DNA of 9,713 nt. It comes from a virus (lineage: Duplodnaviria > Heunggongvirae > Uroviricota > Caudoviricetes). The translations under genes and the position numbers were made by a program. The notes under the pieces were generated by a model. It was not told the DNA's origin, did not search any database, and worked only from the letters and a program-made list of their open reading frames with translations. The stretch covers positions 1 through 9,713 of the IMG/VR virus record IMGVR_UViG_3300029250_000062; one strand, given 5' to 3'. Below are positions 1 through 9,713 of the stretch, piece by piece (the stretch's first letter is position 1; the number at the start of each line of letters is the position of its first letter).

Positions 1-1764
1 GAATATTACTTTGTCATTGCGCTGGCCGGGCAGTCCAACTCGATGTCTTTTGGCGAGGGGCTGCCGCTGCCGGAGACATATGACCGTCCGGACCCGCGTA
101 TTAAACAGCTGGCGCGTCGCAGTACGGTGACGCCGGGTGGTGCCGCCTGTAAATATAACGACATCATTCCGGCAGACCACTGTCTGCATGATGTGCAGGA
201 TATGAGTAACCTGAATCATCCTCATGCAGACCTGAGTAAGGGACAGTACGGTTGTGTGGGGCATGCTCTGCATGTTGCCAAAAAGCTGCTGCCGTTTATG
301 CCTGCGAATGCGGGTATCCTTCTTGTTCCATGTGGCCGTGGCGATCCGGGATTTACTGCGGGGGCCGAGGGGGCGTTTAACGAAGCGTCGGGAGCGACCG
401 CAGGCTCGTCCCTGTGGGGGGCGGATAAACCGCTGTATCATGACCTGGTCAGCAGAACCCGTGCGGCCCTGAAGAAAAATCCGAAGAACGTGCTGTTATC
501 AGTGATCTGGATGCAGGGAGAAAAAGATGTCAGTTCGGGGAGACATGCAGAACACAATGCGCTTTTCCTTGCCATGGTAAATCAGTTCCGTACGGAACTG
601 GCAGATGTGGCAGAGCAGTGTACTGGCGGGACAACGGCCAGCGTCCCGTGGATTTGCGGTGATACCACGTACTACTGGAAGGAAAGGTATGCAGCGCCGT
701 ATGAGGCGGTTTACGGTGGGTATAAAGGCAAAGCTGCGCAGAATATTCACTTTGTGCCGTTGATGACGGATGAGCATGGTGCGAATGTGCCGACAAACGA
801 GCCGTCAGAAGATCCGGACATTATCCCGGCGGGATACTATGGCGCTGCGTCACGCACTGCCAGTAACTGGACGTCAGCCGATCGTAAAACGCACTTCAGT
901 TCATGGGCGCGAAGAGGCCTTGTTTCAGACCGCCTGGCAGGTGCCATTTTGCAGTACGCCGGGCGGACATTATCGTTCCTTACCGGGCAGAGCGCACCGC
1001 AGTCGGGTGGTACAACTCCCGGTGATGATGTCAGTCCGGGGACACCGGATGTTGAGAAACCGCAGGATGGCGGTGTTGCTGGTACTGGTCATGATGAGGC
1101 CGTGAGCAGTACCAGGACGGTGGCTGAATATGATGCGAACAGTGGAAATGGTGTATGGACAGAGCAGCAGTGGGGGGCTGCCGGTGGCAAAGGCACTGTG
1201 ACTGATGACGGTGGACGGAAAGCGCTACGACTGGAAAAACAGCCCGGTAAACTGACGTCCTGGAAAATGTTCCGTACTGTTGCAGTGGAGGAGGCAAAAA
1301 ATCTTCTCAGCAAGGGGGGTGAAATTGCCGTACGGTTCAAAATTCCGGATGGAAGCGAACTGGTGAACGGACAGTTTGTCTTTGGTCTCTACTGGCCGGT
1401 GTCGCAGTGGGCGTCAGGCGCGGCAGCAAACAGTATGCTGGCATCATTCTTCCTTCAGACGGATGCATCAAATCTGAATCTTATGCACCACAAGGGCACG
1501 TCGAATGCACAACTGGGTACATTTGGTGCGTTTGACCATAACTGGCATACGGTTGTTTTCCGCTTTGCGGGAAATAACAGCGAAAGAGTCGTTCCGGTGA
1601 TTGATGGTACAGAGCAGACGGCGTTTGACCTTGTGATGTGGACAAATGATGGCTTTACAGCAGATACGCTGACGCTGACAGATATCACGGGGGCAAAAGC
1701 GACGTATCCTGTACTGCTTGATACGGTCACAGTCAAAGTTAACGAAAGCCGGGCATCATCATAA
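1..1764 (+). CDS. NanS-p-like sialate O-acetylesterase (SGNH/SASA-type hydrolase with C-terminal extension); 5'-truncated by window edge
   Basis: Frame is open from base 1; the listed ATG at 43 is internal. First in-window residues EYYFVIALAGQSNSMSFGEG contain the GQSN catalytic-serine block of SGNH/SASA esterases. Stop TAA at 1762-1764. Position immediately upstream of the lysis cassette matches where nanS-p sits in Stx-type lambdoid prophages (recollection, not searched). Confidence 0.7.
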   Translation, partial: EYYFVIALAGQSNSMSFGEGLPLPETYDRPDPRIKQLARRSTVTPGGAACKYNDIIPADHCLHDVQDMSNLNHPHADLSKGQYGCVGHALHVAKKLLPFMPANAGILLVPCGRGDPGFTAGAEGAFNEASGATAGSSLWGADKPLYHDLVSRTRAALKKNPKNVLLSVIWMQGEKDVSSGRHAEHNALFLAMVNQFRTELADVAEQCTGGTTASVPWICGDTTYYWKERYAAPYEAVYGGYKGKAAQNIHFVPLMTDEHGANVPTNEPSEDPDIIPAGYYGAASRTASNWTSADRKTHFSSWARRGLVSDRLAGAILQYAGRTLSFLTGQSAPQSGGTTPGDDVSPGTPDVEKPQDGGVAGTGHDEAVSSTRTVAEYDANSGNGVWTEQQWGAAGGKGTVTDDGGRKALRLEKQPGKLTSWKMFRTVAVEEAKNLLSKGGEIAVRFKIPDGSELVNGQFVFGLYWPVSQWASGAAANSMLASFFLQTDASNLNLMHHKGTSNAQLGTFGAFDHNWHTVVFRFAGNNSERVVPVIDGTEQTAFDLVMWTNDGFTADTLTLTDITGAKATYPVLLDTVTVKVNESRASS

Positions 1765-2710: not shown

Positions 2711-3244
2711 ATGAGCAGGAAACTCCACTATGGTTTATCGGTAGCCGTTCTGGCGCTGATTGCCACAGGTGCTTCTGCGCCTGAAATCCTCGACCAGTTT
2801 CTTGACGAAAAAGAAGGTAACCACACCACGGCATACCGTGATGGTGCGGGGATCTGGACCATCTGCCGTGGTGCCATCATGGTGGATGGCAAACCTGTCG
2901 TCCCGGGCATGAAGTTGTCGAAGGAAAAATGCGCTCAGGTTAATGCCATTGAACGTGATAAGGCGCTGGCATGGGTGGAGAAAAACATCAAATTGCCACT
3001 GACTGAACCGCAGAAAGCGGGCATCGCGTCATTCTGTCCGTACAACATCGGGCCTTCGAAATGCTTCACCTCAACGTTTTACCGGAAACTGAACGCCGGA
3101 GACCGGAAAGGTGCATGTGCTGAAATCCGCCGATGGATATATGACGGCGGCAGGGACTGTCGGAATCGCTCAAATAACTGTTACGGGCAGGTATCGCGGC
3201 GTGACCAGGAGAGCGCGCTGGCGTGCTGGGGAATTGACAGATAA
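2711..3244 (+). CDS. R: SAR endolysin (T4-lysozyme-like muramidase, R21-type)
   Basis: 177 aa. N-terminal weakly hydrophobic signal-anchor-release segment LHYGLSVAVLALIATGASAP. E-8aa-D-5aa-T catalytic triad in EGNHTTAYRDGAGIWT. Starts 5 nt after the holin stop. Confidence 0.85.
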   Translation: MSRKLHYGLSVAVLALIATGASAPEILDQFLDEKEGNHTTAYRDGAGIWTICRGAIMVDGKPVVPGMKLSKEKCAQVNAIERDKALAWVEKNIKLPLTEPQKAGIASFCPYNIGPSKCFTSTFYRKLNAGDRKGACAEIRRWIYDGGRDCRNRSNNCYGQVSRRDQESALACWGIDR

Positions 3245-3597: not shown

Positions 3598-3729
3598 ATG
3601 TCAGACAAACTCATAACGCTGGCGAAGATCCTCTGTGTAATTGTCGGCATTTCATTTTCACTAATGCTGGTTGCTCTTTTTCTTTCCATGGCCTGGATGA
3701 TGTTGTCTTCGTCGGGGCTGCTGGGGTGA
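3598..3729 (+). CDS. Hypothetical small membrane protein (43 aa), single transmembrane helix
   Basis: ATG at 3598 preceded by strong SD AAGGGAGGA. Sequence [43 protein letters not shown]. Its stop TGA (3727-3729) overlaps the GTG start of Rz (GTGA), suggesting translational coupling. Confidence 0.45.
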
Positions 3730-4199
3730 ACATAAACCGAATGCTTTCCGCGTTTATCGTTATTCTGCTGGTGGCCTGTGGTGCGCTGTGGATGGCAACA
3801 GACCATTACCGTGATAACGCGATTACCTACAAAGCGCAGCGCGATAACAAAGCCAGTGAACTGAAGCTGGCGAACGCAACCATTACTGATATGCAGGTGC
3901 GCCAGCGCGATGTTGCTGCGCTCGATGCAAAATACTCGAGGGAATTAGCCGATGCGAGAGCTGAAAATGAAACTCTTCGCGCTGACGTTGCCGCTGGTCG
4001 TAAGCGCCTGCGGATCAACGCCACCTGTCCAGGCTCCGTGCGTGAAGCCCCCACCACCTCCGGCGTGGATAATGCAACCGGCCCCAGACTGGCAGACGCC
4101 GCTGAACGGGATTATTTCATCCTCAGAGAACGGTTGATGACAATGCAGAAGCAGCTGGAAGGGGCACAGCTATACATTCGTGAGCAATGCCTCAGATAA
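3726..4199 (+). CDS. Rz: Rz inner-membrane spanin (i-spanin)
   Basis: N-terminal TM helix ([18 protein letters not shown]) then [14 protein letters not shown]...[25 protein letters not shown], which tracks lambda Rz closely (recollection). GTG start at 3726; alternative ATG at 3741. Confidence 0.85.
3952..4137 (+). CDS. Rz1: Rz1 outer-membrane lipoprotein spanin (o-spanin), embedded in the +1 frame of Rz
   Basis: Lipobox LVVSAC, proline-rich [26 protein letters not shown] typical of lambda-type Rz1. SD GAGGGAA upstream; alternative start ATG 3967. Fully nested within Rz. Confidence 0.8.
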
Positions 4200-4588
4200 A
4201 AACCGGCCAAGGATAATCCGCTGAAGATTTGCCGGTGGCTAAAGGGGCCAAGCCACCAATTTACGTAATTAGCCACAGAGATACAATATTTTAGTTTACT
4301 TATGTATTTCTGAAGCATGTCTTTGCGCAGTATCGTCGCCGTATTCCCACATGAACAGAGACCGCAGCCCTACCGGGAGACTCCTCTGCGCGAGTGTGCG
4401 GGGATAATCAAAAACGATACACACCGGGGTTTACCGCGTTAACGGAGCGCGGCGTTGTCCCCTCATGGTCGCTGGTCCGGTGCGATGGTGGAAGAAACCG
4501 GACGATGTGTTACCTCGCAAGCTCTGTTATGTCATGTGTCTGATTTGTGATTTAAGTCGGATAATTGTCGTTGCCATTAAACAGAGGA

Positions 4589-4631
4589 TTGATGACCGAC
4601 AGGGTGGCATTGTTAGAATAAGACTTATTCT
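4589..4631 (+). promoter_or_regulatory. Putative sigma70 promoter (extended -10) with overlapping perfect palindromic operator-like site
   Basis: -35-like TTGATG (4589-4594), 19-bp spacer, extended -10 TGtTAGAAT (4611-4619). Palindrome AGAATAAG-a-CTTATTCT (4615-4631, 8-bp perfect arms) overlaps the -10/+1 region and ends 14 bp before the downstream lipoprotein start. Confidence 0.3.
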
Positions 4632-4645
4632 TATCTGTGCCGGGA

Positions 4646-4978
4646 ATGAAAATGAAAAGAAATCTTCCGTTAATTATTTTGTTGTCTTCTCTGGTTATGG
4701 GCTGTACGCAACATAAAACAGATATGCCCCGACAGTTGGTTAAGGCATTACCACAATATCCGGCCTATGCAGCGGCAAATTATATAAAGGGACGGGTTGA
4801 TGTGAAGTTTGATATTGGTGCTGATGGTACTGTCACCCGAATTGAGTTTATCCGTTCAGAGCCGCACCATTTGTTTGATGAGCAGGTTGTAAAGGCGATG
4901 GCAAAATGGCGATTTGAGAAGGACAGGCCGTGTAAAGGCGTGAAGAAAACGTTTATCTTTAGTCCTTCTGCACCCTGA
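4646..4978 (+). CDS. Lipoprotein consisting essentially of a TonB C-terminal-like domain (moron candidate)
   Basis: Signal peptide with lipobox (MKMKRNLPLIILLSSLVMG-C; Thr at +2 suggests outer-membrane sorting). Mature part LPQYPAYAAANYIKGRVDVKFDIGADGTVTRIEFIRSEPHHLFDEQVVKAMAKWRFE parallels the E. coli TonB C-terminal domain (PQYP...G.V.V.F.....DG.V.......P...F...V..AM..WR(Y/F), from memory). Alternative start ATG 4652 has better SD spacing. Confidence 0.7.
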   Translation: MKMKRNLPLIILLSSLVMGCTQHKTDMPRQLVKALPQYPAYAAANYIKGRVDVKFDIGADGTVTRIEFIRSEPHHLFDEQVVKAMAKWRFEKDRPCKGVKKTFIFSPSAP

Positions 4979-5011
4979 TTATTTCATCAGAAATTAATTA
5001 TCACTCTGTTG

Positions 5012-5113
5012 TTATTCTGTACATCCCGGCAGGGTAAGTCTTGTTCCGTCGGATATGAAGATGAAATATTGTTGGAGGACAGTGGGTACCTGCTCCTGTA
5101 ACCGAACGTTCAT
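5012..5113 (-). CDS. Possible 33-aa ORF translationally coupled to the upstream RHH gene (speculative)
   Basis: On the minus strand the ATG overlaps the RHH stop (ATGA). Product MNVRLQEQVPTVLQQYFIFISDGTRLTLPGCTE. Below the length cutoff of the supplied ORF track; no family recognised. Confidence 0.2.
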   Translation of the reverse strand: MNVRLQEQVPTVLQQYFIFISDGTRLTLPGCTE

Positions 5114-5310
5114 TTCTCGTTATTTTTCATGCTGGCCGGGCGCAGATGCGTTGCATCTGTTGCCAGCCTTCTCCTGCAGGCTTCAATAACCCACGCTGAA
5201 AAGTTACCGGACCCTTTATGCTCAAGGGCGATGCTGATCTGTTCAATCATGTGATTGGGGAAACGGATATTGCGGGTTGTGGTTCTGCGGGTCCGGTTTT
5301 TCGATGACAT
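5110..5310 (-). CDS. Arc/Mnt-like ribbon-helix-helix DNA-binding protein (possibly YlcI/YnfO DUF3950-like)
   Basis: 66 aa from ATG at 5310-5308 with SD AAGGAAA 8 nt upstream on the minus strand. RNIRFPNHMIEQISIALEHKGSGNFSAWVIEACRRRL aligns in pattern with Arc repressor FNLRWPREVLDLVRKVAEENGRSVNSEIYQRVMESF (beta-strand then two helices). Opposite strand to the surrounding late genes. Confidence 0.65.
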   Translation of the reverse strand: MSSKNRTRRTTTRNIRFPNHMIEQISIALEHKGSGNFSAWVIEACRRRLATDATHLRPASMKNNEK

Positions 5311-5351
5311 ATTTATTTCCTTTACTGATTGCCATATGACGGGGATTTTAC

Positions 5352-5717
5352 ATGGCTCAGCTTCGTACACTCCAGAGCAGAATCAAAACACTGAATACCC
5401 GACGGGTGAATATTCTGAAGGGGGAGCAGCGTCGTGTCAGTGGCAGTGCACGTGTTTCCCTCAAGCGTCATATCTGGCTGAGGGACGCCGGGCAGTGCTG
5501 TATCTGTGGTCGTGTGGTTGACCTCTGTGACAGTGAACTTGATCACCGAATTGCACTTCAGTTCGGTGGTGGTAATGAGGAGACGAATCTCTGGACGCTC
5601 TGTACCGAATGCCATCGACAAAAGTCTGCTCGTGAAGCGGCGGGTGGTATGCCGGACCCGACGCTGCCGGAGGTGTCCGGAGGTAGTGGCAGAGCGGACG
5701 ACATCATCGGACTGTAA
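5352..5717 (+). CDS. HNH endonuclease (packaging-associated, HK97 gp74-like)
   Basis: CxxC...DH...N...CxxCH arrangement: CCICGRVVD, SELDHRIALQFGGGNEETNLWTLCTECHRQK. Sits immediately upstream of the cos-like region and terS, the usual place in HK97-like packaging modules. Confidence 0.85.
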   Translation: MAQLRTLQSRIKTLNTRRVNILKGEQRRVSGSARVSLKRHIWLRDAGQCCICGRVVDLCDSELDHRIALQFGGGNEETNLWTLCTECHRQKSAREAAGGMPDPTLPEVSGGSGRADDIIGL

Positions 5718-5810
5718 CCCGACCCGGGGGGGGGGATCATCCGGCGTAAAAAACGATCGCTTTGGACACCGCGCCCCCTCTCACGCAGAGAAAAAATTCC
5801 CGTTTCAGGG

Positions 5811-5936
5811 CAGTTAACATGTTAACTGGCTGCCCGGGCATTTTTGCGGTTTTTATCTTTATTATTCAGTTTGTTGTGCGGAAAAAATGTTAACTGGCTT
5901 TTTCAGCAAATGTTAACCAGGCAGCAGTTAACATTT
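5811..5936. repeat. Array of five ATGTTAAC/GTTAACAT motifs (palindrome, direct repeat, inverted pair); putative cosB / terminase small-subunit recognition sites
   Basis: 18-bp perfect palindrome CAGTTAACATGTTAACTG (5811-5828); 12-bp direct repeat ATGTTAACTGGC (5819-5830 and 5887-5898); inverted pair AAATGTTAAC (5908-5917) / GTTAACATTT (5927-5936) with 9-bp spacer. All in non-coding DNA between HNH and terS, ending about 70 bp before the terS start. Confidence 0.45.
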
Positions 5937-6008
5937 GCGGCATGAGACGCCGGGAAAAATGGGCTGAACCATACCCGGCTGAGTGCGTTCTGGACCCGGG
6001 AGGAGGCT

Positions 6009-6572
6009 GTGCTGACAACGCAAAAACGAAAATTTGCGCTGGCGCTCATGTCCGGGAAAAACAAAACAGCGTCAGCCATTGCCGCCGGTTATTCGGCGAA
6101 GACCGCCAGGGTTAAAGGCTCGCAGCTGGCAAAAGATCCGGAGGTGCTTGCGTTTATAGCCCGTAAACAATGCGAGACGGTGGAGGTGGATGAGGTTCCT
6201 GTTTACCGGCAGAAAAAATCAGAGCAGGAGGATAAACCCCGTCGCCGTGAGGCGGCTGCAATACCACAGCCGGACGAAAACAATCCGGAGATGCCACCGT
6301 CCGCGGTGATGTCTCCTGGTATTGAATATATGGAGGATGGTCTTCCCGATCCGGTGAAAGCCATGGGGCGGATCCTGGTGGAAAACCTCTGCATTGATCC
6401 GAAACTGGCACTGGATGCGGCCTGGCGTCTGGCGCAGTTCACGCACCATAAAAAAGGGGATACCGGGAAAAAATCGGCAAAAGGTGATGCCGCGAAAAAA
6501 GCGGCTAACCGTTTTGCGGTGCCACCGCCACCCAGACTGGTGGTGAATAACGATAATGAGGGCAACGGATGA
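6009..6572 (+). CDS. terS: Terminase small subunit (HTH-containing)
   Basis: GTG start at 6009 with SD GGGAGG/AGGAGG (5998-6006). N-terminal LTTQKRKFALALMSGKNKTASAIAAGYSAKTARVKGSQL matches the usual terS signature (K.FA..Y....N.T.AAI.AGYS.KTA...GS.L). Stop TGA overlaps the terL ATG (ATGA at 6569-6572). Confidence 0.85.
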   Translation: MLTTQKRKFALALMSGKNKTASAIAAGYSAKTARVKGSQLAKDPEVLAFIARKQCETVEVDEVPVYRQKKSEQEDKPRRREAAAIPQPDENNPEMPPSAVMSPGIEYMEDGLPDPVKAMGRILVENLCIDPKLALDAAWRLAQFTHHKKGDTGKKSAKGDAAKKAANRFAVPPPPRLVVNNDNEGNG

Positions 6573-8230
6573 TACCTGTATGGAGCACAGCCTGCCCGGA
6601 CTGGGCAGAGCGCCTGAAAAAGGGGCTGTCGATTATTCCGGATCCGATTTATCCGGACGAGGCCGCACATGCCCTGGCGATTTTTAAACAACTGCGGATT
6701 GTGGATGCACCTGGTAGCCCGACGTTCGGGGAGTCCTGTGCACGGTGGGTGTTTGACCTGGTGGCGGCCCTGTTTGGCTCCTACGATGCGCAGACCGGTG
6801 TACGCCATATCAAGGAAGTTTTTATCCTTATCCCCAAGAAAAACTCGAAGTCCACGCTGGCCGCGGGGATCATGATGACGGCGCTGTTACTGAACTGGCG
6901 GCAGGCGGCGGGTTACACGATTCTGGCCCCGACTGTGGAGGTGGCGGCCAACGCCTTCAACCCTGCCCGGGATATGGTACGACGTGACGATGATCTGGAT
7001 GACCTCTGCCAGGTACAGACCCATATCCGGACCATCACCCACAGGGTGACAGACACCACCCTGAAGGTGGTGGCAGCCGATCCGAATACGGTGTCCGGTA
7101 TCAAGTCCGTGGGTACGCTGATTGATGAGTTGTGGCTGTTTGGCAAGCAGTGCAAGGCGGAGGACATGTTACGTGAAGCCATAGGCGGCCTTGCCTCCCG
7201 CCCGGAAGGGTTTGTGGTGTATACGACCACCCAGTCGAATGAACCGCCCGCCGGGGTGTTCAGACAGAAACTGCAGTACGCCCGGGATGTGCGCGACGGC
7301 AAAATTCATGATCCGCACTTTCTGCCGGTGATATTTGAACACCCTCCTGAAATGGTGGAAAGCGGGACTCACCTGCTGATGGAAAACCTCGCCATGGTCA
7401 ATCCGAATCTCGGCTATTCAGTGGATGAGGCCTTTCTGTACCGGGAGTACCGTAAAGCCCGGGAAGCCGGTGAAGAGACATTCCGGGGGTTCATGTCAAA
7501 ACACGCCAATGTGGAAATTGGTCTTGCCCTGCGCTCTGACCGCTGGGCGGGGGCTGATTTCTGGGAAGAGCAGGGCCGTTGTATCAGCCTGGACGATATC
7601 CTGCGTCGTGCTGATGTGGTGACGGTGGGGATTGACGGCGGAGGGCTGGATGATCTGCTGGGGATGTATGTGATTGGGCGTGACCGGGAGACCCGCGAAT
7701 GGCTGGGCTGGGGCCATGCCTGGGCGCATGAAACCGCGGTGGTCCGACGGAAGAGCGAGGCGTCCCGGTTTCAGGATCTTGTTGCCTGTGGAGATATGAC
7801 CATTGTCCGGCGTGTCGGGGATGACACGGCGGAAGTGGCGGAATATGTGCGTCGCATTCATGAGGCTGAGTTACTGGACCATATCGGTATTGACCCGTCA
7901 GGGGTGGGGCAGATTCTGGATTCACTGGCGGAAGCCGGGATCCCCGACGGAATTGTGGTGGGGATAAGCCAGGGCTGGAAACTGGGCGGGGCCATTAAAA
8001 CCACCGAGCGCAAACTGGCTGAAGGGGTGCTGGTGCATGGTGACCAGCCCCTGATGGCCTGGTGTGTCGGCAATGCCCGGGTGGAGCCTAAAGGTAACGC
8101 CATTCTTATCACCAAACAGGCCAGTGGACGGGGAAAAATTGACCCGCTGATGGCGCTGTTCAATGCGGTCTCCCTGATGTCCCTTAACCCGGAACCGAAA
8201 AAGAAAGAATATGCGGTTTTTTTCATATAA
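6569..8230 (+). CDS. terL: Terminase large subunit (ATPase + RNase H-like nuclease domains)
   Basis: 553 aa. Walker A-like ILIPKKNSKSTLAAG, Walker B-like GTLIDELW, C-terminal nuclease-type acidic cluster VTVGIDGGGLDDLLGMYVIG. Translationally coupled to terS. Confidence 0.9.
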   Translation: MIPVWSTACPDWAERLKKGLSIIPDPIYPDEAAHALAIFKQLRIVDAPGSPTFGESCARWVFDLVAALFGSYDAQTGVRHIKEVFILIPKKNSKSTLAAGIMMTALLLNWRQAAGYTILAPTVEVAANAFNPARDMVRRDDDLDDLCQVQTHIRTITHRVTDTTLKVVAADPNTVSGIKSVGTLIDELWLFGKQCKAEDMLREAIGGLASRPEGFVVYTTTQSNEPPAGVFRQKLQYARDVRDGKIHDPHFLPVIFEHPPEMVESGTHLLMENLAMVNPNLGYSVDEAFLYREYRKAREAGEETFRGFMSKHANVEIGLALRSDRWAGADFWEEQGRCISLDDILRRADVVTVGIDGGGLDDLLGMYVIGRDRETREWLGWGHAWAHETAVVRRKSEASRFQDLVACGDMTIVRRVGDDTAEVAEYVRRIHEAELLDHIGIDPSGVGQILDSLAEAGIPDGIVVGISQGWKLGGAIKTTERKLAEGVLVHGDQPLMAWCVGNARVEPKGNAILITKQASGRGKIDPLMALFNAVSLMSLNPEPKKKEYAVFFI

Positions 8231-8255
8231 CCCTGTTCACACTGTAACCATCACG

Positions 8256-8277
8256 AACCGCTCCGGCGGTTTTTTTA
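8256..8277 (+). terminator. Putative intrinsic terminator between terL and the head genes
   Basis: Stem AACCGC (8256-8261) / GCGGTT (8266-8271), tetraloop TCCG, followed by a T-run (through about 8280). Short stem, so modest confidence. Confidence 0.4.
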
Positions 8278-8293
8278 TTTTCAGGAGGCTGAT

Positions 8294-9713
8294 GTGACTC
8301 TTAAACGGGCCTGTTCCCTGCTGACGGTGAAATCCTTCAGTGAGGATGAACGGGTGATCACCGGGATTGCGTCAACGCCTTCTCCGGATCGGGATGGTGA
8401 CATCCTGGAGCCGGAGGGCGCGGAGTTTGGCAGTGCGATCCCGTTTCTCTGGCAGCATGACCATTCCCGCCCGGTGGGGCAGTGTACGGTGCGCCGGGTC
8501 AGCGAAGGGCTGGAAATCACGGCAACACTGGTGAAGCCCGTACCGGATATGCCGTCGCAACTGGCTGCCCGGCTGGATGAGGTCTGGGCGGCCATTAAGA
8601 CCGGGCTGGTCAGGGGGCTGTCCGTGGGCTTCCGTCCCCATGAATACACCTTTCTGGACGGAGGCGGACTGCATTTTCTGCGCTGGGAACTGATGGAGGT
8701 GTCTGCCGTCACCGTGCCCGCGAATGCGGAATGCACCATCCGGACCATTAAATCTTACGACCGCCCGTTTTCTGCCGCGTCCGGCAACCGGAAACCGGTG
8801 GTGAAAATCGCATCTTCTGCCGGCGCTGCGGCACAGTCAACAACCGTTTTTCATAAGGAAAAGACCATAATGAATATTGGCGAACAGATTAAAAGTTTTG
8901 AAAACAAGCGTGCAGCGCTGGCAGCCTCCCTTGAGGAGGTCATGACCAAAGCCGCAGAGGAAGGGCGCACGCTGGATGTGGAGGAGGAAGAGCATTACGA
9001 CAACACCGCAGCGGAAATCCGTCAGGTGGATGCGCACCTGAAGCGCCTGCGTGAACTGGAAGCCGGTAAGGCCGCCACGGCGCAGCCGGTGAAACAGGCC
9101 GGTAACGGGAATGTGGCCGCGGTGGCTTCTGCGCCGGTGATCCGTGTGGAGCAGAAACTGGATAAGGGGATTGGCTTCGCCCGCTTTGCCAAATCGCTGG
9201 CTGCGGCTAAAGGCGTCCGATCTGAAGCCCTGGAAGTGGCCCGTCGTCAGTATCCGGATGACAGTCGTCTGCATCATGTCCTGAAATCGGCAGTGGGCGC
9301 GGGGACCACCACGGATCCGCAGTGGGCAGGCAGCCTGTCTGAATATCAGGAATACGCACAGGACTTTATTGATTACCTGCGTCCGCAGACCATTATCGGG
9401 CGATTTGGTCAGGGCGGGATCCCTGCACTTCGTCAGGTGCCGTTCAATATCCGTGTGCACGCCCAGGTGTCCGGCGGTGCTGCCGGCTGGGTGGGTGAGG
9501 GTAAGGCAAAACCCCTGACGAAGTTTGATTTTGAATCCATCACCTTCAGTCATGCGAAGGTGTCGGCCATTGCGGTACTGACGGAAGAATTGATCCGTTT
9601 TTCCAGTCCGGCTGCTGATGCACTGGTCCGTAATGCGCTGGCGGAAGCGGTGGTGGCGCGTCTGGATACAGACTTTGTGGACCCGAAAAAAGCCGCAGTG
9701 GCAGATGTCTCCC
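8294..9713 (+). CDS. HK97-family prohead protease fused in-frame to major capsid protein (delta domain + HK97 fold); 3'-truncated by window edge
   Basis: GTG 8294 preceded by SD AGGAGG (8283-8288). I translated this frame codon by codon and found no stop from 8294 to 9712; that is why it is absent from the ORF track. Protease motifs GIASTPSPDRDGDILEP, PFLWQHD, VSAVTVPANAEC; then Ala/Ser/Gly-rich linker; then from Met (ATG 8870) a coiled-coil delta-like region and capsid-like body (DKGIGFARFAKSL... GWVGEGKAKP... AVLTEELIRFSSPAA). Confidence 0.75.
   Translation, partial: MTLKRACSLLTVKSFSEDERVITGIASTPSPDRDGDILEPEGAEFGSAIPFLWQHDHSRPVGQCTVRRVSEGLEITATLVKPVPDMPSQLAARLDEVWAAIKTGLVRGLSVGFRPHEYTFLDGGGLHFLRWELMEVSAVTVPANAECTIRTIKSYDRPFSAASGNRKPVVKIASSAGAAAQSTTVFHKEKTIMNIGEQIKSFENKRAALAASLEEVMTKAAEEGRTLDVEEEEHYDNTAAEIRQVDAHLKRLRELEAGKAATAQPVKQAGNGNVAAVASAPVIRVEQKLDKGIGFARFAKSLAAAKGVRSEALEVARRQYPDDSRLHHVLKSAVGAGTTTDPQWAGSLSEYQEYAQDFIDYLRPQTIIGRFGQGGIPALRQVPFNIRVHAQVSGGAAGWVGEGKAKPLTKFDFESITFSHAKVSAIAVLTEELIRFSSPAADALVRNALAEAVVARLDTDFVDPKKAAVADVS
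8870..9713 (+). CDS. Possible independently translated major capsid protein from internal in-frame start (nested in the protease-capsid ORF)
   Basis: ATG 8870 preceded by AAGGAAAAG (8855-8863). Product begins MNIGEQIKSFENKRAALAASLEEVMTKAAEEG, a typical N-terminal scaffold-like delta domain. Analogous in logic to lambda C/Nu3 nested translation. Confidence 0.4.
   Translation, partial: MNIGEQIKSFENKRAALAASLEEVMTKAAEEGRTLDVEEEEHYDNTAAEIRQVDAHLKRLRELEAGKAATAQPVKQAGNGNVAAVASAPVIRVEQKLDKGIGFARFAKSLAAAKGVRSEALEVARRQYPDDSRLHHVLKSAVGAGTTTDPQWAGSLSEYQEYAQDFIDYLRPQTIIGRFGQGGIPALRQVPFNIRVHAQVSGGAAGWVGEGKAKPLTKFDFESITFSHAKVSAIAVLTEELIRFSSPAADALVRNALAEAVVARLDTDFVDPKKAAVADVS

What the first reader, a model, noticed from the sequence alone, without database searches (positions are those of the whole stretch)
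8231..8293. No portal gene where HK97-like modules normally have one (between terL and protease)
After terL ends at 8230 there are only about 60 bp (terminator-like hairpin plus SD) before the protease-capsid ORF begins. In canonical HK97-like head modules the order is terS-terL-portal-protease-capsid. Either the portal lies elsewhere (downstream of the capsid gene, outside the window), or this element has an unusual head-module order, or it is defective or satellite-like and depends on a helper.
Basis: partly seen in the sequence, partly recalled or inferred. Interest (0 to 1): 0.5.

Follow-up and report, generated by a model that had tools for sequence, protein, structure and literature searches.

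The report
Portal gene sits after capsid gene
The missing portal gene is not missing: in this common family of E. coli lambdoid prophages (long-tailed Shiga-toxin phage type) it lies just after the capsid gene, beyond the window's end, in a known and widely conserved alternative gene order.

Summary
terL ends at 8230. A 63-bp spacer carries a hairpin, a T-run and AGGAGG. A prohead-protease::capsid fusion ORF starts at GTG 8294 and runs off the window. No portal is encoded anywhere in the window.

The arrangement is ordinary for this lineage. The region is 95-99.9% identical to the head module of genus Pankowvirus (phages 2851, YYZ-2008, Stx2a_WGPS6) and to prophages in about 1,240 of 5,426 complete E. 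coli genomes. In every relative inspected the order is HNH, terS, terL, protease::MCP (645 aa), small ORF, portal, connector, then a lambda-like tail. Six contigs encoding the window's exact TerL show the portal about 210 bp after the capsid stop.

In a survey of 48 genomic loci from Alpha-, Beta- and Gammaproteobacteria, 44 have the portal downstream of the capsid gene. Only the two most distant relatives (23-28% MCP identity) keep the canonical order. [quoted passage not shown] Pankowviruses are inducible and form plaques, so a satellite or defective reading is unsupported. Low interest; already known.

The parts
5352..5717 (+). HNH endonuclease gene preceding the terminase genes (typical partner of HK97-type cos terminases)
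   Evidence: Pfam PF01844 E=4.8e-07. phrog_589 HNH endonuclease E=1.6e-44. Same position in all Enterobacterales relatives.
6009..6572 (+). terS, small terminase subunit (187 aa)
   Evidence: PF03592 E=1.3e-08. phrog_641 E=1.8e-68.
6569..8230 (+). terL, large terminase subunit (553 aa)
   Evidence: PF03354 + PF20441. phrog_7622 and phrog_9. The exact protein is found on at least 24 public contigs.
8231..8293 (+). terL-to-capsid spacer (the finding): no coding capacity, holds a hairpin, a T-run and a ribosome-binding site
   Evidence: Sequence. ORF list. No Rfam family. A spacer of 45-105 nt is typical across relatives.
8255..8282 (+). Intrinsic-terminator-like hairpin (GAACCGC-TCCG-GCGGTTT) plus T-run, conserved across genera
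   Evidence: Pattern scan. Fold. The alignment with phage 2851, YYZ-2008, Serratia and Pantoea shows a conserved stem with an A/T to C/G compensatory change. Function is inferred, not shown.
8283..8288 (+). Shine-Dalgarno AGGAGG, 5 nt upstream of GTG 8294
   Evidence: Sequence. Invariant in alignment A1.
8294..9713 (+). 5' 1,420 nt of the prohead protease::scaffold-like linker::HK97-type major capsid protein fusion gene. The full gene is 1,938 nt (645 aa) and would end about 518 nt beyond the window.
   Evidence: Translation. PF04586 + PF05065. phrog_617 E=1e-261. 100% amino-acid identity to the E2348/69 protein over the part present.
8870..8872 (+). In-frame ATG (Met193) preceded by AAGGA at 8855-8859. 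It aligns with Met1 of the separate capsid gene of Burkholderia phage vB_SBP39. It is a possible internal start giving a protease-less scaffold-MCP product (inferred).
   Evidence: Sequence. Alignments A2 and A3, with M193 invariant in A2.

Best explanation
The window is the late-operon segment (esterase, lysis genes, HNH, terS, terL, start of the capsid gene) of an E. coli lambdoid prophage whose head module is the Pankowvirus type found in long-tailed Stx1a/Stx2c/Stx2a phages.

In this HK97-like lineage the portal gene has changed places with the protease/capsid genes. The order is HNH, terS, terL, 63-bp spacer, protease::scaffold::MCP fusion, small ORF (about 73 aa), portal, protein X, head-tail connector, head closure, then the tail genes. 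By extrapolation from relatives, the portal would start about 730 bp beyond the window's 3' end.

Nothing is missing and no helper is needed. All these genes lie on one strand in one late transcription unit, read by Q-antiterminated RNA polymerase (established lambdoid biology; Q genes lie upstream in relatives). Assembly does not depend on gene order. The rest of the pathway is inferred from HK97 biology. The portal dodecamer nucleates a procapsid built from the fusion protein. The N-terminal S78 protease and coiled-coil linker face inward and are removed by autoproteolysis. The HNH/TerS/TerL complex then packages DNA through the portal.

Shown here: gene content, order, conservation, and that phages with this module are viable. 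Inferred: co-transcription, the proteolytic maturation scheme, and any role for the conserved hairpin (for example an mRNA 3'-end or stability element that antiterminated polymerase reads through).
For: Protein identities. The portal N-terminal 420 residues match solved HK97-family portals (E=2.9e-28 to 1e-11).

Portal downstream in close relatives:
- E2348/69 prophage, 99.8% identical.
- Phage 2851 and YYZ-2008 and WGPS6.
- The nearest whole-window match, UCPROB-002.
- Six contigs encoding the window's exact TerL, 99.6-99.7% nt identity over 4324-9713, all with the portal domain about 210 nt after the capsid stop.

Frequency in E. coli: terS-terL-capsid DNA is present at >=80% coverage in 1,243 of 5,426 complete genomes. 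The colinear terS-to-connector block is present in 1,242.

Breadth:
- Burkholderia phage vB_SBP39, Serratia and Pantoea prophages share the order.
- Of 48 loci from one-genome-per-species contigs, 40 show terL>protease>MCP>portal. Four truncated loci show MCP>portal. Two degraded loci show no portal. Only the two most distant loci (MCP 23-28% identical) have terL>portal>MCP.

Literature:
- bioRxiv 10.1101/606087, Fig. [quoted passage not shown]
- Pankowvirus phiSTEC799-Stx2c was induced, is long-tailed and lysogenises MG1655 (PMC12029490).
- Pankowvirus phi330, closest to WGPS6, is a plaque-forming siphophage (PMC12502783).
Against: The window stops inside the capsid gene, so the portal of this particular copy is not seen directly. 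Individual copies can be damaged. The portal is annotated as frameshifted in UCPROB-002, interrupted in L063, and terL is split by IS629 in phages 1717 and F349. No exact source record for the whole window was found (best match 97% coverage, 97.3% identity). Co-transcription, processing of the fusion protein and the hairpin's role were not tested.
Confidence: 0.93

Rival explanations
1. The element is a phage satellite, such as a capsid-forming PICI, that carries packaging and capsid genes but depends on a helper.
For: An HNH-terS-terL plus HK97-type capsid gene set also occurs in cf-PICIs (criteria quoted in 10.1101/2025.02.11.637232).
Against: [quoted passage not shown] The window carries lysozyme and Rz genes directly upstream. 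Near-identical relatives continue into a full lambda-like tail module and have Q antiterminator genes upstream. cf-PICIs also encode their own portal, so a missing portal would not point to them.
Confidence: 0.02
2. This particular copy is a defective prophage remnant that is truncated or decayed downstream and has no functional portal.
For: Decayed copies exist. There is a frameshifted portal in L005, an interrupted portal in L063, and degraded modules in an Arsenophonus endosymbiont and in Paraburkholderia (L054, L053). E. coli genomes carry a median of 2 places matching this region, and up to 8.
Against: Every ORF visible in the window is intact. The capsid fragment is 100% identical to that of E2348/69. 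1,242 of 1,243 genomes with the terL-capsid junction also have the colinear portal-connector block. Even if true, this would concern copy decay, not the gene order that prompted the finding.
Confidence: 0.05

Closest known systems
Genus Pankowvirus head module (Enterobacteria phage 2851, YYZ-2008, Stx2a_WGPS6; also lambda-like prophages of EPEC E2348/69 and many STEC)
   Same: Window 6000-9713 is 96-98% identical in DNA to these phages and 99.8% identical to E2348/69. The spacer, hairpin and GTG start are the same. The order is HNH-terS-terL-protease::MCP-small ORF-portal-connector.
   Different: The lysis and moron region upstream is mosaic: only 79-93% identical or replaced. In the named phages the portal is fused in frame to the next gene (859-861 aa). 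In contigs with the window's exact TerL the portal (454 aa) and that gene are separate.
Canonical HK97 head module (terS-terL-portal-protease-MCP, with HNH next to the terminase)
   Same: The same protein families are present: TerL PF03354/PF20441, portal PF04860, protease PF04586 (S78), MCP PF05065, gp6-like connector, head closure protein and gp10-like protein. The portal matches the solved HK97-family portal chain 8cez (E=7.9e-20).
   Different: The portal is placed after the capsid gene. The protease is fused to the MCP. There is an extra small ORF and an extra gene X between portal and connector.
Burkholderia phage vB_SBP39 and related Alpha/Betaproteobacterial prophages
   Same: The same swapped order, terS-terL-protease-MCP-small ORF-portal-connector. 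Homologous proteins (38.9% identity over 96% of the fusion).
   Different: Protease and MCP are separate genes. The portal is of normal size (444 aa). No X homologue was detected in several of these loci.
Capsid-forming PICIs (cf-PICIs)
   Same: HNH, terS, terL and HK97-like protease, capsid, portal, adaptor and connector genes.
   Different: cf-PICIs lack lytic genes and a tail module and are 10-18 kb. This element has lysis genes in the window, and relatives have a full tail module.
Protease-capsid fusion proteins of other phages (PHROG 4523 'major head and protease protein'; actinobacteriophage capsid/protease fusions, the latter from my own knowledge)
   Same: A single polypeptide carries the S78 protease and the HK97-fold MCP.
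   Different: Only a weak profile match (E=1.7e-11 over residues 93-249). These are separate lineages, and their gene order was not examined here.

Membership tests
HK97-like head/packaging module | Terminase_1-type TerL (ATPase + nuclease) | tested here: met
   PF03354 E=3.1e-11 and PF20441 E=1.5e-09.
HK97-like head/packaging module | S78 (HK97 gp4-type) prohead protease and HK97-fold major capsid protein | tested here: met
   PF04586 and PF05065 on one ORF.
HK97-like head/packaging module | HK97-family portal (PF04860) in the same module | tested here: met
   Not visible in the window. In relatives 99.6-99.8% identical to the window over the terminase-capsid region, a PF04860 portal (E=7.6e-81) follows the capsid gene.
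HK97-like head/packaging module | Canonical order terL-portal-protease-MCP | tested here: not met
   The order is terL-protease::MCP-portal. The module shares the protein families but is an order variant.
Pankowvirus-type head module | High nucleotide identity and colinearity with the head genes of phages 2851, YYZ-2008 and WGPS6 | tested here: met
   100% coverage of window 6000-9713 at 96.7-98.3% identity. Same gene order.
Pankowvirus (genus membership of the whole element) | >70% genome-wide nucleotide identity (the criterion used in PMC12502783) | not testable with these tools
   Only 9.7 kb of the element is available, and the upstream part is mosaic.
cf-PICI satellite | Absence of lytic genes | tested here: not met
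   Phage_lysozyme at 2711-3244 and Rz at 3726-4199 in the window. Criterion.
cf-PICI satellite | Absence of a complete tail module; size 10-18 kb with an integrase/replication module | tested here: not met
   The window ends before this region. All close relatives carry a full tail module downstream and Q plus replication genes upstream in a prophage of more than 40 kb.

The most novel reading that the evidence does not exclude
The swapped order may not be purely neutral. Two features fit a lineage-specific way of setting head-protein stoichiometry.

(a) The terminator-like hairpin just before the capsid gene is conserved across genera. It could mark a regulatory or mRNA-stability boundary between terminase and structural genes.

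(b) The relocated portal sits next to gene X, which has copy-number-variable 54-aa repeats and a CBM5/12-like C-terminus. A single G in a G5/G6 run switches between separate portal + X and an 861-aa portal-X fusion. This could reflect programmed frameshifting or phase-like variation that attaches X to some portal subunits.

None of this is shown.
Probability: 0.12. Interest if true: 0.4.

Novelty: already known. Interest (0 to 1): 0.08.

Why it matters
It matters little for biology and somewhat for annotation. The absence of a portal between terL and the protease is the signature of a common, functional head-module type. That type occurs in about 23% of complete E. coli genomes, often in several copies, including Stx-converting phages. 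It should not be read as evidence of a defective prophage or a satellite.

The survey here adds a modest point. The swapped order characterises a whole clade of HK97-like modules across Alpha-, Beta- and Gammaproteobacteria, whereas their more distant relatives keep the canonical order.

Tried and rejected
- **Portal hidden in the window:** tblastn of E. coli and Burkholderia portals against both strands found nothing. The minus-strand ORFs inside terL and the capsid gene are shadow ORFs; none was tested further.
- **Known RNA in the spacer:** an Rfam gathering scan of the whole window gave 0 hits.
- **Statistical support for the hairpin:** none from the fold z-score (-1.19) or the terminator count (3 found, 5.1 expected). 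Only conservation supports it.
- **Exact source genome:** not in the E. coli complete-genome collection (best 97% coverage, 97.3% identity).
- **Identity of gene X:** Pfam gives only sub-threshold CBM_5_12 hits (21-23 bits against a cutoff of 26.2). PHROGs call it 'portal protein' or unknown. A PDB sequence search found nothing.
- **Literature:** searches for a dedicated description of the protease-MCP fusion or of the order in this lineage gave only the figure-legend remark in 10.1101/606087. The supplement of PMC12502783 shows mass-spectrometry maps only for the short-tailed phages, so I found no virion proteomics for the Pankowvirus portal.
- **Satellite reading:** rejected on the cf-PICI criteria.

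Full report
**1. The observation**

The window's + strand carries terS (6009-6572) and terL (6569-8230, PF03354 + PF20441). After the terL stop there are 63 bp (8231-8293). A long frame then opens at GTG 8294 and runs off the window. It has a Peptidase_S78 prohead-protease domain at residues 48-152 and a Phage_capsid domain from residue 386.

The spacer holds a terminator-like hairpin at 8255-8272 followed by TTTTATTTTC, and an AGGAGG 5 nt before the GTG. No meaningful ORF lies in the spacer and there is no Rfam family. tblastn with two portal proteins finds no portal anywhere in the window on either strand.

The hairpin is not remarkable by the scan's own statistics. It is, however, conserved in Serratia and Pantoea relatives with a compensatory stem change, while the surrounding spacer has diverged.

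**2. What the region is**

Upstream the window has a SASA/DUF6645 esterase (cut by the window start), DUF826, a lysozyme, an Rz spanin, a TonB_C-domain ORF and an HNH endonuclease. This is a lambdoid late region.

Window 6000-9713 matches 1,263 E. coli records. In 1,243 of 5,426 complete genomes a single place covers at least 80% of it. It also matches 94 phage records, nearly all Stx1a-, Stx2c- or Stx2a-converting phages, at 90-99.7% identity. These include Enterobacteria phage 2851, YYZ-2008 and Stx2a_WGPS6, which ICTV places in genus Pankowvirus.

**3. Where the portal is**

In EPEC E2348/69 (99.8% identical) the annotated order is HNH, terS, terL, 645-aa 'major capsid protein', a 73-aa ORF, an 861-aa portal, head-tail connector, head closure protein, gp10-like protein, tail completion protein, and a lambda-like tail.

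- The 645-aa protein is the protease::MCP fusion (PF04586 + PF05065).
- The portal's first ~380 residues match PF04860 at E=7.6e-81.
- The portal also matches solved HK97-family portals.

The same order is annotated in phages 2851, YYZ-2008 and WGPS6, and in the best whole-window match.

Six public contigs encode exactly the window's TerL and are 99.6-99.7% identical to window 4324-9713. All have the portal domain starting about 210 nt after the capsid stop.

A 7.3-kb query spanning terS to connector is colinear (>=80% coverage) in 1,242 genomes, against 1,243 for the terS-terL-capsid query. So wherever this terL-capsid junction occurs in E. coli, the portal follows.

Extrapolating from these relatives, the capsid gene would end about 518 nt past the window. 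The portal would begin about 730 nt past it.

**4. How widely the order is conserved**

The fusion protein has about 2,500 database relatives. The top hits are 644-648-aa S78+capsid proteins from Salmonella, Enterobacter, Klebsiella, Serratia, Kosakonia and Pantoea at 73-78% identity.

- Serratia and Pantoea loci read HNH-terS-terL-fusion-(small ORF)-portal (447-449 aa)-unknown 300-348-aa protein-connector.
- Burkholderia phage vB_SBP39 reads terS-terL-protease-MCP-small ORF-portal-connector, with protease and MCP as separate genes.

A scan of one genome per species returned 48 loci from Gamma-, Beta- and Alphaproteobacteria, plus one Tissierellaceae MAG. Mapping terL, protease, MCP and portal with tblastn gave these results:

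| Order observed | Loci |
|---|---|
| terL>protease>MCP>portal | 40 |
| (protease>)MCP>portal, contig truncated upstream | 4 |
| No portal in the flank, degraded (L053, L054) | 2 |
| Canonical terL>portal>MCP (L055, L056; MCP 23-28% identical) | 2 |

Protease and MCP share one ORF in 32 of 43 assessable loci.

The swapped order is therefore the ancestral state of a large clade, not an oddity of this element.

**5. Is it functional?**

- Pankowvirus phiSTEC799-Stx2c was induced, has a long tail and lysogenises MG1655 (PMC12029490).
- Pankowvirus phi330, whose closest relative is WGPS6, is a plaque-forming siphophage with a 55-nm head and a 145-nm tail that uses OmpC (PMC12502783).
- WGPS6 matches window 6000-9713 at 96.7% identity and has the same order.

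The module therefore builds infectious particles without a helper. Linking phi330 to this exact module is an inference through WGPS6.

**6. Mechanism**

Gene order does not affect head assembly, because all the genes are co-oriented in the late operon. In lambdoid phages this operon is read by Q-modified, terminator-resistant RNA polymerase. That is established knowledge; Q genes are annotated upstream in relatives.

By analogy with HK97, the portal nucleates a procapsid built from the fusion protein. The N-terminal protease and coiled-coil linker are internal and are removed by proteolysis. HNH/TerS/TerL then package DNA. This scheme is inferred.

Met193 of the fusion (ATG 8870, preceded by AAGGA) aligns with the start of the separate MCP gene in the Burkholderia phage and is invariant in alignment A2. 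A nested protease-less product is therefore possible but untested.

The conserved hairpin would be read through by antiterminated polymerase. It may serve as an RNA 3'-end or stability element, or it may stop non-antiterminated read-through in lysogens. This is speculation.

**7. Comparison with known systems and rivals**

The protein families are those of HK97, but the canonical order is not met. The module is best filed as the Pankowvirus-type order variant.

The cf-PICI satellite reading fails its defining criteria of no lytic genes, no tail module and a size of 10-18 kb, because lysis genes are in the window and tails follow in relatives.

A decayed copy cannot be formally excluded, because the window ends early and some copies carry frameshifted portals. 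That would not explain the gene order.

**8. Side observations**

In E2348/69 and the named Stx phages the 859-861-aa 'portal' is a portal (residues 1-~450, 63% identical to the 449-aa Serratia portal). It is fused in frame to the homologue of the separate downstream gene X. Met455 aligns with Met1 of X.

- In contigs with the window's exact TerL the two are separate ORFs of 454 aa and 299-461 aa.
- The only difference at the junction is a G5 versus G6 run.
- X contains 3.3 copies of a 162-bp repeat at 95% identity.
- X has a sub-threshold CBM_5_12-like C-terminus in three orthologues.
- X has no solved homologue.

**9. Verdict**

The explanation is ordinary and already documented. Interest is low.

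Noticed in passing
L001:20788-20793 (E2348/69) versus L058:~15219-15223; junction alignment A4: A G6 run gives one 861-aa portal-X ORF in E2348/69 and phage 2851. A G5 run gives a 454-aa portal ending in AAAATGA, overlapping the ATG of a separate X gene. The G5 form occurs in contigs carrying the window's exact TerL, and the same ATGA overlap is seen in Serratia. This could be a mutation hot-spot, a sequencing-prone site or a frameshift site.
   Followed up: partly
L001:20806-22026; L006:9492-10394; L007:9482-10528; L058:15236-16135; L061:9695-11080: A conserved gene X lies between portal and connector in this lineage. It has an N-terminal helical segment, copy-number-variable 54-aa repeats (162-bp unit, 3.3 copies at 95% identity in E2348/69; protein length 299-461 aa among E. 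coli copies) and a C-terminal domain with sub-threshold CBM_5_12 hits (motif GDTVTWGGSLWHC). Its function is unknown and there is no PDB homologue.
   Followed up: partly
window 8255-8288: The hairpin + T-run + AGGAGG before the capsid gene is conserved in Serratia and Pantoea prophages (about 75% protein identity) with a compensatory A/T to C/G stem change, while the rest of the spacer is unalignable.
   Followed up: partly
window 8855-8872: An in-frame ATG (Met193) with an upstream AAGGA coincides with the start of the stand-alone capsid gene in Burkholderia phage vB_SBP39. This is a possible nested scaffold-MCP product, analogous to nested C/Nu3-type genes.
   Followed up: partly
L001:19277-19498 (73 aa); L006:7976-8146 (56 aa); L004:3944-4120 (58 aa): A small ORF of unknown function (phrog_829) always sits between the capsid and portal genes, even in the Burkholderia phage. 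In E. coli it overlaps the annotated portal start by 55 nt.
   Followed up: partly
window 4637-4978: A TonB C-terminal-domain ORF (PF03544, E=1.4e-14) lies between the lysis genes and HNH. It looks like a moron, is present in some relatives (L005, L058-L062) and is absent in E2348/69 and the Stx phages.
   Followed up: no
window 43-1764: The ORF with SASA esterase + DUF6645 domains is cut by the window start. The full protein in relatives is 662 aa with an additional DUF1737 domain. It is the late-region esterase common in Stx-type prophages.
   Followed up: no
L005:23600-26346; L059, L060, L062 portal regions; L063:13875-15096: The portal/X region is often annotated as frameshifted, or has no called gene, in draft and complete assemblies, even though tblastn shows an uninterrupted portal domain in L059, L060 and L062. 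The G-run and the 162-bp repeats probably cause assembly or annotation trouble.
   Followed up: partly
L040 (Tissierellaceae MAG contig, 8.2 kb); L028 and L029 (Hydrocarboniphaga effusa): A module of this otherwise proteobacterial type sits on a contig binned to a Firmicutes MAG, which suggests possible mis-binning or host jump. One Hydrocarboniphaga chromosome carries two copies with identical hit patterns.
   Followed up: no
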